Shown here one piece after another: positions 2,198-63,290 of a stretch of DNA of 64,000 nt. Source of the DNA: Chrysomallon squamiferum. Taxonomy: Eukaryota; Animalia; Mollusca. The notes below the pieces were generated by a model. That model did no database searches and was not told the DNA's origin. It was given only the letters and a program-made list of their open reading frames with translations. Made by a program: the position numbers and the translations under genes. The stretch is from assembly GCA_012295275.1 (NCBI GenBank), contig CM022671.1, positions 24,924,001 to 24,988,000 of the forward strand. Reading direction: 5' to 3'. The first letter of the stretch is position 1; each line of letters begins with the position of its first letter.

Positions 2198-2760
2198 TCA
2201 GCACTGACATTTAGCTAAGCACTCAACTGTTAAAAGCGTGTCGCAGTTCCCAGCTTCAGGTATTTTAATACTAGTATTTTCACCAGCTTTATCACTTTTA
2301 CGAAAACAACAACAAAGTTTCCTTGTAGTGTTCCTGAAGTTTCGCATCAAAATAAAGTAAACAAATACGTTCATTAGAGGGCACATCAGTGACAGGAACG
2401 TAAGGACGATATTTACGACTATGAATTTCGTGCAACGCACGTACAATGCGAAAAGGTAACTGAGTCAAGATATGTATTATAAAAATTATGGTGTTTAATT
2501 TATACAAACGAATTTTACTTTCTGTTGCTCTGCTGTTATAACAGTTGGTTAAAATGGCAGATTTCTGGTGTAGAATTATCTTTATCATGCAAACTGTTAC
2601 AACTATAAAAGGATAACAATTAAACCGGATAAGTTAATTGCTCCAACCCACCAGTTACTAGAGTTATAGTCCGCTTCCATTCTCCCGGATTCTTCATTCA
2701 GACTATAAAATGTTCCTTCCAAAAGAGAGTACGTCAATGATATTGGAACCTAGATCCATA
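2198..2760 (-). pseudogene. R1: 5'-truncated 7TM receptor pseudogene (TM4 end to C-terminus), close paralog of R2
   Basis: ORFs 2298..2588 and 2198..2446 carry ESKIRL...LPF and PLMNVFVY...MRNFR in different frames. The nucleotide sequence is near-identical to R2 9480-9830. It has a TGG>TAG stop in the W-I-W-V-P motif (~2750), a 1-bp deletion at ~2611 and a 2-bp deletion at ~2430. Homology ends at ~2760, where a (GTA)n tract begins. Confidence 0.9.
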
Positions 2761-2769
2761 AGTAGAAGC

Positions 2770-3045
2770 AAAACGGTAATAATAGTATTAGAAGAGGTAG
2801 TAATAGCTATAATAGTAATTGTAGTAGTAGTAGTAGTAGTAGTAGTAGTAGTAGTAGTCTCAGCAGCAGCAGCAGCAGCAGTAATAGCAGCAGCAGCAAT
2901 AGTAGTAGTAGTAATATTAGAGAACGAATTAGAAAGAATAGTAGTAGTAGTAGTAGAGGTAGTAGTAAATGTAGTAATAGTAGTAGTATCAGAAGCAGCG
3001 ACAGTAGTAGCGGTAGTTATTGTAAAAGTAGTAGCTATTGTAATA
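2770..3045. repeat. (GTA)n/(GCA)n microsatellite region replacing the 5' half of R1
   Basis: Runs of gtagtagta and gcagcagca, which give the poly-V/A ORF 2710..3081. Confidence 0.9.
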
Positions 3046-59619: not shown

Positions 59620-59900
59620 GCTTGATTAATAATCTGGAATTTAATTTCAGATCGATACACTGTAATCCCGAAAGCCGTTTTATTAATGTTTTTATTCTTG
59701 GATTTTTTGTTGTCATGTAGGTTTTTTCATTTATTAAGATTAAATCCTTTCAGTTGGTTTCTTACATATTCTTTTTTCAAAACTTTTACATTTGAAATGC
59801 TCATTTTATAATTTGTTGCTTCGATTGATTTTTTTTCTTCTTCTTTTTTTTTTCTTTTTCATTATTATCTGTAAACCACATTACCTCATTTAATTAAAGC
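59620..59900 (+). other. Conserved downstream non-coding element (copy after R10)
   Basis: ttttattcttggatttttgttgtcatgtaggttttttcatttattaagattaaatcctttcag. Confidence 0.65.
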
Positions 59901-62549
59901 ATGGGATTATGGCGTTTTGAGAAACTCATGTTTAATAACGTATTCACAGATCACAGATACAAACGTAAAGAACCAAAGTAATTTCAAGTCAGTAATAAAC
60001 ATTTAATAGGAAAATTTGAAAAATAATTAAAGAAAAGGAAACATGTGCAAATGTTATTTCATCGTTTGCTTCTGTGTTGTTGTTTTTCTCTCTCTCTCTC
60101 TCTCTCTCTCTCTCTCTCTCTCTCTCTCTCTCTCTCTCTCTCTCTCTCTCTCTCTCTCTCTCTCTCTCTCTCTTTCTCTCTCTCATGTTTGTTTCTTAGT
60201 TTATGTTTATTCATTTATTTAATTTTTTTACTATATAAAAGTTTATTATACAATTCACTGCAAATATTAGTTATTGTTTTTCAATATCCTTCCTATATTC
60301 TTCAAATGAAGTGTTATCATAATTAGTAATATTCTTTAGCTTGTTGTAAGAAAAATATGCATTTCAAAATTTAACTAACCAGAACATAACTTATTTCACA
60401 CCTTTCGTTGCGTCACAGTTTCTGACAGTTTGAATGGATATTATTAATAATAAATGCATTCATAATGCAGATTACGGAAAACAGGTAAAGAATTTAGATT
60501 GCTATTGTTGCTGTAAATTCAACATTATTTTTATTATTTTATTCTTTGAGAGTATTTATTATAAAAAAAAAAATCAGTTAAATATCTTTGAATGATTATT
60601 TACTGTGCTCAGTCTTTTGTATGAATATCGCAAAAGTTACAATGAGGCATGAGTGAATGAAGATAGTCTGTATATTTTTTATGTTTTTATTAGTTTTTAG
60701 CTGACATTTTGCAGTTAATCTCGGAGTAACAACGACTACCACAGTTTTCAAGAGTTATCTTCCTGGTTTCCGAAAATGATTTTAATTTCGTTACATAAGT
60801 ATATACGTATTTAAGTATTTATAAACTTTGTGATCTTTCATGTATGCATATGTGATGTAGATATGTATATGTATGTATGAATGTATAAATGAATAAATGT
60901 ATGTATGAACTATATATCAGTATATTACGTATGTGTATGTGTATCTAACAGAATAAACATTGTTATATAAAACAATAAAATGACGTCATATCTTTGTCAC
61001 TTTATGCTCGTTACCTGGAGTCGTTGTTGACTGCCTGTATATTTCACATGTGGTTGGCTGCTTAGGTAACTAACTCACATACTGTTCTTCAACAAACATA
61101 GCTGACTAGCGCTATATCCAAGAAGTTATTGAAAATACCGAAAATTACTTAATGCATACATACATACATACATACAAGCAGATAATTTACTGCACTTAAT
61201 AGCATTTGTTTTTCGATATCCATATTACATTCTTCATGTCAATTGTTTTTACAATTTAAAATGGTCTGTTAAAAGTATACCGCAGAAACAGCAAGAAAAC
61301 AGTAAATCCACTAATTACAAAATATTTATTATTTATTACTCTTAGATGAAGCTAATAAAACAAATAAAGTATTCAAATAGCTGTTATGGTTGTAAATTCG
61401 ACATTATTTTCATATTATTTATTCTGTGAGAATATTTATTACAGAAAGAAACAAAATCAAATAAATATCTCTTTGTATTATTAAACTACATTCAGTCTAC
61501 AGCGTCATTTGCAAAATCGACCAGCTGACTTGTTGCCAATTTATTGTCTCCTGTGAAAATATATAGGATAAAAACATAAAAAAGAAGATTCAAGGAAATA
61601 TCTGTTTGAATCATTAAAAAGCTGTACTCCGTCTTCTGTAACAATTTATCAATATTGCAACTGACCTGGTGTAAGCAATTTACCATAGAACACGTTTTTT
61701 TATATACAAAGTACGCTAGAGAATGAGTATATATTAATTTGCAACTGTTACCTTTAATATTACTTTACTGATTCCTAACTCCTTAACATCTTCTTTTGAC
61801 CAGAACTGCATTCGTAAGGTAGAGTAGTCTAGATGAATATAATTATATACTAGTTTTTTTTAATATCTTCAAAATACCGCTGAAAGATTAATTGGGGAAA
61901 AAAAAAGAAAAAAAAAAAAGGATACTGGAAGAAAGAAGAAACAAAGGCCGAAATATTCTTATTATTATAATTATTATTATTATTATTATTATTATTATTA
62001 TTACTGTTGTTGTTGTTATATTATATCAAACGCAATGACACTACTACTACTAATGCGGCAGCATCTACCGCTATTACTAACGTGCTAATACTATTTATTC
62101 TTCTACTAACCTTCCACTAGAAATATCACTGTGATGAATGTTAATCTAATTTCAGTTACATAAAGAACTCTGATATCAAACCTTACATTTCTTAATTCTC
62201 TTGCTGACTTCCTGGTACAGCTACTGAACCATTAATTTTATCCGGCAAATACTGAACTGAATGTGGTCACGATTTCAGGATAAAAGCTAAATCTACCTTT
62301 AAAGTATGAAAAACAAAGAGCTAAAAATTGTATCTAACAGATAAATATTAATTCACTTCTAAAGAAAGCTGTCTTTGATTTTCACTGATATTTGACTTTA
62401 ATTCACTTAAAGTTAGCTGATATAGAATGTGTCTTTCATTAGCAAGCTATGTTTTAAATATATTATTATTATTATTATTATTATTATTATTATTATTATT
62501 ATTATTATTATTATTACAGAGAGCCCTCGCTGTTCATTTCCCCTATGTA

Positions 62550-63290
62550 CGTTGTTTGTCACATACGTCGACAACAAACAAAGGACAACATGTCAGTTAA
62601 GGTATTTTCTGTTTCACATTTACATTGTTTTGAGCGATATGAAGAGCATCTTGACGATTAGAATAAAAACTACAACGTGTGAATTAGTCAAGTGAAATTT
62701 TGATTTCTCTTGTTCTGTTAACACAAAAAAAACAAATTGTCTAAAACTGAAACATTTTGATGTTTGCCAACTTTTCTGATACATTTAGTAATTAAAAAAA
62801 AAGGAACAGCAACTACACTTGTCATGTTAAGATCCCCAACCCACCATTTCGTTGAAGTGTAGTTAGGATTGAGTGTCTTCGAATGTTCATTCACTGTGTA
62901 AGAACATCCTTCTAAATAGACATAACACAAAACTACAAGAACCAAAGCTGTGTTACTATCAAATATATCGTCACTCTCCTCTTTGCAACATGAACGTGAT
63001 ATTTTAACCGGTTACATACACCAACACAGAGGAAAAAAACATTTAACAGAGGCAAAGGATGCAACCAAAGTTATTACAAATAGAAACTAGCTATTAGAAA
63101 TGTTTAAATGTCAAATCATTTCGGCTAGAAGCTCAATGGCCATAAAGTGACCAATAGCAGAGAAAGACATCCTGGATCTTTCAAGAATCATCACTTATGA
63201 AAATATTTGGAAAATACTCATAATACAACATAGCTCTTGCAAGTAAATTACCTTCAAAGAGGATATCAGCGAGATTAGTTACATTTGCCT
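62550..63290 (-). pseudogene. R11: heavily decayed 7TM receptor pseudogene (R6-like)
   Basis: Fragments ANVTNL, MILERSRMSFSAIGHFMAIELLAEMI*HLN and CYVYLEGCSYTVNEHSKTLNPNYTSTKWWVG lie in shifting frames. The upstream flank 63560-63790 resembles the R6 upstream flank 35810-36050. Confidence 0.85.

What the first reader, a model, noticed from the sequence alone, without database searches (positions are those of the whole stretch)
2198..63290. Tandem array of 11 intronless, divergent class A-like 7TM receptors: candidate undescribed chemoreceptor family
Seen: 11 paralogs in 61 kb, single-exon ORFs of ~310-320 aa with short glycosylated N-termini, mixed orientation, and a spectrum from intact to fully decayed. 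Known: intronless CDS, tandem clustering, birth-and-death turnover and an ICL2 'AIC.PL.Y' motif characterise odorant/chemosensory GPCR repertoires (vertebrate OR/TAAR; expanded rhodopsin-like families in molluscs). Inference: this is a lineage-specific sensory receptor expansion. I do not recognise its signature motifs (NEVLAD, KCF, YLEGTF, PNYT..NWWVG, ESKIRL) from any named family.
Basis: partly seen in the sequence, partly recalled or inferred. Interest (0 to 1): 0.88.

Follow-up and report, generated by a model that had tools for sequence, protein, structure and literature searches.

The report
Snail receptor array lacking activation switches
Eleven neighbouring copies of a single-exon receptor gene (five intact), from what is likely a snail, probably detect outside chemicals, yet they lack the arginine switch that nearly all related receptors use and carry lysines predicted to fill the sodium pocket, so they would have to signal in an unusual way.

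Summary
There are 11 paralogs between 2198 and 63290: 5 intact (308-323 aa), 3 broken only by single-base frameshifts, 3 decayed. They are class A GPCRs (Pfam 7tm_1; model pLDDT 79; Z about 24 to peptide receptors). Intact copies are under purifying selection (dN/dS 0.17-0.33) and vary most in the outer helix halves. Nearest named relatives are orphan receptors of Gigantopelta aegis (31% identity) and abalones, so the source is likely a gastropod, not a cephalopod. Tandem, lineage-specific class A expansions are a known kind in gastropods, including vent snails (Nath 2025); the array as such is ordinary. None of 30 family rows has the DRY arginine R3.50 (L or M instead), 26 of 28 have K/R at 7.49, and the window's branch also has K3.39 and E2.46. 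Engineered N7.49R and S3.39R mimic sodium and stabilise inactive muscarinic receptors. The cytoplasmic face is the most conserved part. Best reading: chemoreceptors that still couple to a G protein through a rewired core (0.5); main rival: non-signalling decoys or modulators. Expression and ligand are untested. New variant of a known kind; interest 0.5.

The parts
2198..2760 (-). R1, decayed copy: only the 3' half (TM4 to C-tail), in-frame stop and frameshifts; sister of R2; a (GTA)n tract at 2797-2988 lies where the 5' half would be
9288..10216 (-). R2, full length but for one 1-base deletion in a T-rich run near 9470 (TM7); N7.49 instead of K; recent pseudogene or assembly error
14907..15842 (+). 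R3, intact single-exon receptor, 311 aa
   Evidence: 7tm_1 39.2 bits
18624..19595 (+). R4, intact receptor, 323 aa; the only intact copy with S instead of D at 2.50
   Evidence: 7tm_1 38.6 bits
23600..24568 (+). R5, intact receptor, 322 aa, used for the model: E55 (2.46), D59 (2.50), K93 (3.39), L104 (3.50), M188 (5.58), H230 (6.48), K261 (7.49), Y265 (7.53), F272-R273 (helix 8)
33665..34618 (-). R6, intact receptor, 317 aa from the homologous ATG (frame open from an upstream ATG at 34705)
34004..34216 (-). Probable gene-conversion tract (TM4-ECL2-TM5-ICL3, R6 codons 135-205) shared by R6/R11 and the R7-R10 group
   Evidence: synonymous differences R6-R7 7/54 inside against 53/101 outside; trees differ
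39213..40140 (+). R7, full length but for two 1-base deletions (near 39572 in an A-rich run, and near 40040); private changes still look purifying
47933..48580 (+). R8, decayed copy: two stops, three deletions, ends in TM6; private changes near neutral
49223..50149 (+). R9, intact receptor, 308 aa, in-frame 4-residue deletion at ECL1; S1.50 and T6.50
   Evidence: 7tm_1 22.7 bits, under the cut-off
56464..57400 (+). R10, full length but for one 1-base deletion near 57200 (ECL3)
62632..63288 (-). R11, heavily decayed copy, sister of R6
38458..60656 (+). Young head-to-tail duplication block: the R7, R8, R9 and R10 units share kilobases of flanking DNA at about 68-84% identity
   Evidence: self-blastn

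Best explanation
This is a tandem array of 11 single-exon class A receptor genes, five intact, that likely serve as gastropod chemoreceptors and are predicted to couple to a G protein through a rewired core that has no DRY arginine. Shown: the array, the fold, duplication, decay, purifying selection, variable outer helix halves with a conserved cytoplasmic face, and the substitutions R3.50 to L, N7.49 to K, S3.39 to K, L2.46 to E, Y5.58 to M, W6.48 to Q/H/Y, with no C3.25. Inferred: (1) each copy binds a different small, rather apolar water-borne ligand between TM2, 3, 5, 6 and 7; (2) K7.49 and K3.39 pair with D2.50 and E2.46 and replace the sodium ion, giving a quiet resting state that does not depend on sodium; (3) ligand binding loosens that network and TM6 moves; (4) the G protein is held by the retained ICL2 Pro-hydrophobic-x-Tyr motif, the near-invariant basic TM6 end (ESKIRL) and helix 8 Phe-Arg, with a TM6 basic residue standing in for R3.50; (5) the repertoire turns over by tandem duplication, gene conversion and loss.
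For: Array and decay. Fold: 7tm_1 above cut-off in 4 of 5 intact copies; model pLDDT 78.8, pTM 0.77; best Z 24.8, rmsd 3.3 over 273 residues to SSTR2. Selection: all 10 intact pairs give dN/dS 0.17-0.33, bootstrap upper limits at most 0.46. Variation among 8 copies: 1.23 bits in outer against 0.70 in inner helix halves (99 and 107 sites, p 3e-8), 0.25 at the TM6 cytoplasmic end. Residue register: gap-free profile alignment to histamine H2 and galanin receptors across TM2, TM3 and the TM7 motif. R3.50 is in 0 of 30 family rows against 19 of 22 outgroup rows; K/R7.49 in 26 of 28 against 0 of 21. The same genomic pattern marks Aplysia receptors found in rhinophore and tentacle (PMC2700072) and lophotrochozoan expansions, which also lack the TM3-ECL2 disulfide (PMC11886862). 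EHV2 ORF74 lacks R3.50 yet couples to Gi (review PMC4353375).
Against: No tissue expression and no ligand. No RNA run was listed as a holder, and one 158-base paralog contig at depth 2.2 in an RNA library proves nothing. R3.50 is 96% conserved and its mutation impairs signalling in many receptors (PMC4353375); N7.49R nearly abolished M4 signalling and S3.39R forms the same salt bridge in M2 (PMC7055379), so the core could simply be switched off. More variation outside than inside is expected of most GPCR families (own knowledge) and does not prove chemosensation. The R7-R10 pair shows the opposite (dN/dS 0.28 outer, 0.36 inner), and positive selection was not formally tested. The salt bridges come from sequence register; model coordinates could not be measured. 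R1 and R2 have N7.49 and R4 lacks D2.50, so the network is not invariant.
Confidence: 0.5

Rival explanations
1. The family does not signal through G proteins. The lost R3.50, Y5.58 and Asn-Pro of NPxxY, with lysines in the sodium pocket, hold it inactive, and it would act as a ligand scavenger, an arrestin-only receptor or a modulator of partner receptors, as atypical chemokine receptors do.
For: Family-wide loss of the switches. N7.49R almost abolished M4 signalling, and S3.39R mimics sodium in M2 (PMC7055379). The best structural matches include many antagonist-bound or inactive entries, though AlphaFold models lean that way.
Against: The cytoplasmic TM6 end is the most conserved stretch measured (0.25 bits) and the ICL2 and helix 8 motifs are kept. 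Large tandem repertoires of decoys are not known to me (recalled). A natural receptor without R3.50 can couple to Gi.
Confidence: 0.2
2. The receptors signal but face inward: they would read host or microbial molecules in blood cells, gill, gut or gonad (immune, symbiont or gamete recognition), not cues from the outside.
For: Tandem birth-and-death with gene conversion also typifies immune receptor families (own knowledge). One Aplysia subfamily is also found in ovotestis. No sensory expression was shown here.
Against: Very short N-terminus and mostly apolar pocket positions, with no acidic residue at 3.32, fit small apolar ligands better than peptides or amines. No characterised endogenous-ligand receptor groups with the family among the 22 outgroups.
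Confidence: 0.18
3. The buried E2.46/D2.50 and K3.39/K7.49 pairs are themselves the sensor: they would titrate with pH or ionic strength, making proton or salt receptors with different set points.
For: Human proton sensors gained buried acidic residues and work with sodium (PMC7948426, abstract only). E2.46 and K/R3.39 appear together in 13 of 13 scored rows of the branch holding the window copies and the Gigantopelta protein.
Against: A proton sensor gives no reason for the outer pocket to diversify. The abalone members keep K7.49 but have S or V at 3.39.
Confidence: 0.07
4. The array is a dying, functionless family and the lost motifs are decay.
For: 6 of 11 copies are broken in this assembly.
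Against: dN/dS 0.17-0.33 at dS near or above 0.8 among intact copies. The same substitutions are shared with Gigantopelta and Haliotis proteins of only 19-33% identity, so they are old and kept.
Confidence: 0.03

Closest known systems
Lophotrochozoan lineage-specific class A GPCR expansions, candidate chemoreceptors (Nath et al. 2025, PMC11886862)
   Same: Tandem clusters, taxon-specific clades, full-length plus truncated and pseudogene copies, higher entropy in outer helix segments, no TM3-ECL2 disulfide.
   Different: That paper reports DRY and NPxxY as the common motifs still seen in its expansions; this family has neither. Its sequences are on Zenodo and could not be seen, so these genes may be counted there unnamed; four RefSeq accessions and the NWWVG motif are absent from the supplement held.
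Orphan receptors of Gigantopelta aegis (XP_041374360.1, auto-named melatonin receptor 1A-like) and Haliotis (XP_046566010.1, XP_046549402.1, XP_067649064.1 and others)
   Same: One clade with the window copies (100/100); share L/M3.50, K7.49 and the TM5 aromatic pair. The Gigantopelta protein also shares E2.46 and a basic 3.39.
   Different: Only 31% identity to R5 and outside the window clade. The automatic names disagree with each other (melatonin, opioid, somatostatin, adenosine, allatostatin-like) and carry no function.
Aplysia candidate chemoreceptors AcCRa-c (Cummins et al. 2009, PMC2700072)
   Same: Gastropod, rhodopsin-like, mostly intronless, clustered about 9-13 kb apart, short glycosylated N-terminus.
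   Different: AcCRs keep the arginine (FERC motif) and an NSSVN TM7 motif; this family has neither, and no sensory expression is shown for it.
Vertebrate odorant receptors (Pfam 7tm_4) and TAARs
   Same: Intronless, clustered, birth-and-death, about 310 aa, AIC.PL.Y in ICL2.
   Different: No 7tm_4 hit in 20 rows; the MAYDRY motif (recalled) is absent; no D3.32 amine anchor. An analogy, not membership.
Engineered sodium-mimic mutants M4 N7.49R and M2 S3.39R (PMC7055379); R3.50-less receptors such as EHV2 ORF74 (PMC4353375)
   Same: A basic side chain at 7.49 or 3.39 beside D2.50; absence of R3.50.
   Different: Those are single engineered changes or single viral receptors. Here both basic residues, an extra acid at 2.46 and loss of R3.50 are natural, shared across a family and under purifying selection.

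Membership tests
Class A (rhodopsin-like) GPCR | Pfam 7tm_1 at or above the curated cut-off | tested here: met
   4 of 5 intact copies (30.7-39.2 bits, cut-off 30.5); R9 22.7; the R10 fragment has no hit. 18 of 20 alignment rows match at E<=0.01.
Class A (rhodopsin-like) GPCR | Seven-helix class A fold with helix 8 | tested here: met
   Model pLDDT 78.8; Z 24.8, rmsd 3.3, 273 aligned.
Class A (rhodopsin-like) GPCR | Anchors N1.50, D2.50, W4.50, P5.50, P6.50 | tested here: met
   Kept in most copies; R4 has S2.50, R9 has S1.50 and T6.50.
Class A (rhodopsin-like) GPCR | D/E-R-Y motif with R3.50 | tested here: not met
   0 of 30 scored family rows (28 L, 2 M); 19 of 22 outgroup rows have R.
Class A (rhodopsin-like) GPCR | NPxxY, CWxP tryptophan, Y5.58, C3.25-ECL2 disulfide | tested here: not met
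   KLxxY in the 5 intact copies; Q/H/Y at 6.48; M5.58; no C3.25 and no ECL2 cysteine.
Lophotrochozoan lineage-specific expansion (Nath 2025) | Tandem clustering with intact, truncated and pseudogene copies | tested here: met
Lophotrochozoan lineage-specific expansion (Nath 2025) | Taxon-specific clade without one-to-one orthologs | tested here: met
   11 copies form one clade, 100/99; best library hit 36% identical to R5. Limit: close relatives of this species may be unannotated.
Lophotrochozoan lineage-specific expansion (Nath 2025) | Higher variability in extracellular helix segments | tested here: met
   1.23 against 0.70 bits, p 3e-8
Lophotrochozoan lineage-specific expansion (Nath 2025) | Listed among that paper's sequences | not testable with these tools
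   Sequences on Zenodo; the supplement held gives counts only.
Chemoreceptor (functional sense) | Expression in sensory neurons and activation by an external chemical | not testable with these tools
   No RNA holder listed; only contigs could be laid.
Vertebrate odorant receptors | Pfam 7tm_4 match and DRY-containing TM3 motif | tested here: not met
   0 of 20 rows at E<=0.01; no R3.50.
Aplysia AcCR a-c | FERC motif at the end of TM3 | tested here: not met
   Motif from PMC2700072; window copies have x-L-C/S. AcCR sequences were not in the tree.
Nematode-type Srw/Srx/Srsx/Srv receptors | Best Pfam match to a serpentine family | tested here: not met
   Srv in 1 of 20 rows (R4, 24.1 bits, above its cut-off of 21 but below 7tm_1 at 38.6), Srx in 1 of 20, Srw and Srsx in none.
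Atypical (decoy) class A receptors | No G-protein signalling, ligand scavenging | not testable with these tools
   Only the motif loss is shown.

The most novel reading that the evidence does not exclude
An old gastropod receptor family (abalones to vent snails) has replaced the whole class A activation core: no R3.50, no NPxxY, and a built-in lysine-acid network in place of the sodium ion, doubled in the window's branch (K3.39/K7.49 against E2.46/D2.50). It still signals as an expanding chemoreceptor repertoire, by an activation route not yet described for class A GPCRs.
Probability: 0.3. Interest if true: 0.75.

Novelty: new variant of a known kind. Interest (0 to 1): 0.5.

Why it matters
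As an array it adds one more tandem expansion to hundreds already counted in gastropods. The interest lies in the protein. Basic residues at 7.49 or 3.39 are used in the laboratory to hold class A receptors inactive, and R3.50 is their most conserved signalling residue. A natural family that carries both changes and lacks R3.50, under purifying selection, is a direct test of whether those switches are needed. If it signals, it shows another activation route and a resting state independent of sodium, which could suit a receptor facing seawater. If it does not, it would be a large repertoire of decoy-like receptors in an invertebrate. The motif set (L3.50, K7.49, TM5 WW) also gives a handle for collecting a family that databases now scatter under unrelated automatic names.

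Tried and rejected
No whole genome is held, so no genome-wide count. The word-index search with the window alignment found nothing; the full HMM scan did. No RNA holder listed. Reads on R7: I first took the high summed depth over the coding region (up to 2566 against about 50-150 in flanks) as many more copies, then dropped it, because contigs overlap and five other window copies are 84-95% identical there. The frameshift test on R7 was inconclusive: run X1 showed no insertion at either break, but its longer contigs differ from the window by about 3-9%, and no listed piece bridges the breaks. A 158-base paralog contig in RNA run X3 (depth 2.2) may be DNA. A single-query alignment suggested a 3-residue deletion at DRY; the deeper profile shows no gap, so the deletion was rejected. 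The ESM Atlas gave only generic 7tm_1 clusters. No Rfam or tRNA hits. Sawyer-type test on 45 silent sites: weak (R6-R7 p 0.028, uncorrected over 28 pairs). Positive selection not tested formally: no codeml on the machine. No complex was predicted: no G-alpha sequence was on hand. Earlier scan findings: none. A cephalopod source was considered from the microsatellite load and dropped: every named family member is a gastropod.
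Full report
OBSERVATION. The window is AT-rich (25-35% GC per 2 kb) and full of microsatellites, as in an animal genome; no whole genome is held. tblastn, nhmmer and a six-frame profile search give 11 copies of one gene and no twelfth. Intact: R3 14907-15842 (+), R4 18624-19595 (+), R5 23600-24568 (+), R6 34618-33665 (-), R9 49223-50149 (+), 308-323 aa, each one open frame. Broken only by single-base deletions: R2 10216-9288 (-), R7 39213-40140 (+, two), R10 56464-57400 (+). 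Decayed: R1 2760-2198 (-), R8 47933-48580 (+), R11 63288-62632 (-). DNA identity between copies is 53-88%.

WHAT THE PROTEINS ARE. Pfam 7tm_1 passes its cut-off in 4 of 5 intact copies. Of 20 aligned rows, 18 match 7tm_1, one Srv, one Srx and none 7tm_4. A model of R5 from those 20 rows has pLDDT 78.8 and pTM 0.77, seven helices, an ECL2 hairpin and helix 8. Its best matches among 48,161 chains are class A receptors (SSTR2 Z 24.8, rmsd 3.3, 273 aligned; orexin-1 24.4; kappa opioid 24.1); none stands apart, so the fold names no ligand.

RELATIVES. A profile scan of 1.84 billion representatives found 34 hits at E<=0.001 and 9 at 1e-10. The best are an unnamed protein (P0001, 36% identical to R5), Gigantopelta aegis XP_041374360.1 (P0002, 31%), and Haliotis rubra, asinina and cracherodii proteins. 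A second search added more abalone members, including H. rufescens; six H. asinina and six H. cracherodii rows each share one contig length, which hints at separate abalone expansions (arrangement not checked). In a tree of 53 rows (11 window copies, 20 relatives, 22 outgroups; 42 of the 70 proteins held were used, leaving out fragments, near-copies and most opsins) the 11 copies form a clade (100/99), they join P0001, P0002 and P0037 (100/100), and all 31 family rows stand apart from the outgroups (100/100). The outgroups are those my searches returned, not a full class A panel, and the root is a midpoint. Every named member is a gastropod, so the window most likely comes from one, nearer Gigantopelta than abalones; the species was not determined.

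HOW THE ARRAY EVOLVES. The R7-R10 units share kilobases of flank at about 68-84% identity, a young tandem block. R1 pairs with R2 and R11 with R6. All 10 pairs of intact copies give dN/dS 0.17-0.33 with bootstrap upper limits at most 0.46. Private synonymous:non-synonymous changes are 10:31 for R8 (near neutral), 19:16 for R7, 9:17 for R10 and 27:45 for R9. R7 was therefore constrained until recently, or its breaks are assembly errors; reads could not decide. R6 shares a tract (codons 135-205, TM4 to ICL3) with the R7-R10 group. Synonymous differences are 7/54 inside against 53/101 outside for R6-R7, 6/53 against 43/96 for R6-R9, 3/42 against 48/99 for R6-R10 (scan p 0.0003-0.005). Control pairs R5-R7 (18/42, 51/89) and R3-R7 (21/42, 47/84) show no such dip. 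The tract tree groups R6 and R11 with R7-R10 (86/92); the tree outside it does not. Against: four other pairs also dip there at p under 0.05 (R1-R2, R7-R9, R4-R9, R4-R5), and a stricter silent-site test was weak. Gene conversion is probable, not proved. Run X1 holds 76% of the sampled words of 18624-24568, yet its longer contigs over the R7 unit differ by about 3-9%, flanks included, a hint of other copies or another haplotype.

THE CORE. A profile alignment to histamine H2 and galanin receptors fixes the register without gaps across the TM2, TM3 and TM7 motifs. Counted on the 53-row alignment: position 3.50 is L in 28 and M in 2 of 30 scored family rows, never R, against R in 19 of 22 outgroup rows. 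Position 7.49 is K in 25, R in 1 and N in 2 (R1, R2) of 28, against no basic residue in 21 outgroup rows. All 13 scored rows of the branch holding the window copies have E2.46 and K/R3.39; the other 17 family rows have S or V at 3.39. The window copies also have M5.58 (I in R11), Q/H/Y6.48 and L/V7.50, no C3.25 and no ECL2 cysteine. D2.50 is kept except in R4 (S) and R11 (E). The rows are not independent: 11 are paralogs and 9 are close abalone copies, but the pattern spans lineages of 19-33% identity. Kept on the cytoplasmic face: the ICL2 Pro-hydrophobic-x-Tyr motif, K6.30 and R6.32, Y7.53 and F8.50-R8.51. The TM6 end is the most conserved stretch measured (0.25 bits). Outer helix halves average 1.23 bits and inner halves 0.70 (99 and 107 sites, 8 copies, p 3e-8, sites treated as independent). 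Pocket positions are mostly apolar, with conserved N5.42, H/R6.52 and H6.58, and no acid at 3.32.

MECHANISM. Shown: fold, array, selection, residue changes. From the literature: N7.49R forms a salt bridge with D2.50, mimics sodium and almost abolishes M4 signalling, and S3.39R does the like in M2 (PMC7055379, passages). R3.50 is 96% conserved and packs against G-alpha, yet EHV2 ORF74 lacks it and couples to Gi (PMC4353375, passages). Inferred: the two lysines pair with the two acids and replace sodium; a ligand in the variable outer pocket loosens this; the conserved cytoplasmic face (G-protein contact regions by my own knowledge) binds a G protein without R3.50. Two questions are open apart: where the receptors face (outside, likely, about 0.7) and whether they couple to G proteins (likely, about 0.7). 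Together I put the best reading at 0.5, decoy or modulator at 0.2, inward-facing receptor at 0.18, proton or ion sensor at 0.07 (PMC7948426, abstract) and dying family at 0.03.

COMPARISON WITH WHAT IS KNOWN. Nath et al. 2025 (PMC11886862; abstract, sections 5, 7, 12, 22, 30, passages, and part 1 plus searches of the supplement) describe tandem, lineage-specific class A expansions in 238 genomes, a mean of 370 per gastropod and 188-350 in four vent snails, with variable outer segments and no TM3-ECL2 disulfide. The array fits that kind. Their text names DRY and NPxxY as the motifs that remain; this family has neither. Their sequences lie on Zenodo and were not seen, so these genes may be counted there. 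Aplysia AcCRs (PMC2700072, passages) share the genomic pattern and have sensory expression, but keep the arginine. Rondon et al. 2024, cited by Nath, did not appear in my searches and was not read. Seven searches (listings, apart from the papers named) showed no description of this family or of a natural K7.49 receptor group. The library lacks most subscription papers, and residue labels written with superscripts can escape the search, so this is weak evidence of absence.

VERDICT. A real feature. The shared loss of R3.50 and NPxxY with lysines in the sodium pocket makes it a new variant worth a functional test. Divergent invertebrate chemoreceptors often shed class A motifs (own knowledge), and how rare this combination is among gastropod expansions was not measured. 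Interest 0.5.

Noticed in passing
window 11303-11819: A 28-bp minisatellite of about 17 copies (88% matches) with a 172-bp higher-order period, between R2 and R3.
   Followed up: no
window 21032-21289, 26342-26606, 31232-31535, 42328-42492, 51823-52018, 59682-59796: A dispersed repeat of about 100-300 bp in both orientations, 70-82% alike; likely a short mobile element; no Rfam or tRNA match.
   Followed up: partly
window 5292-5782, 43343-43771, 52779-53282, 60415-60656, 61331-61466: A second dispersed repeat of up to about 500 bp, 68-80% alike, three copies of which sit in the duplicated R7/R9/R10 units.
   Followed up: no
window 39128-39559, 47982-48341, 56442-56879 (minus strand): Open frames of 119-145 codons opposite the 5' halves of R7, R8 and R10; most likely shadows of the receptor codons, not genes.
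   Followed up: no
just upstream of 18624, 23600, 39213, 47933, 49223, 56464: A shared purine-rich leader directly before the start codon in R4, R5 and R7-R10.
   Followed up: no
P0011 and related Haliotis cracherodii proteins: Abalone members carry C-terminal tails of several hundred residues; in P0011 the tail is made of short Pro/Thr/His-rich repeats. May be real or annotation read-through.
   Followed up: no
window 38800-41500, run X1: At many sites every listed contig carries a letter other than the window's, in flanks as well as the gene; the R7 unit may differ in copy or haplotype between individuals.
   Followed up: partly
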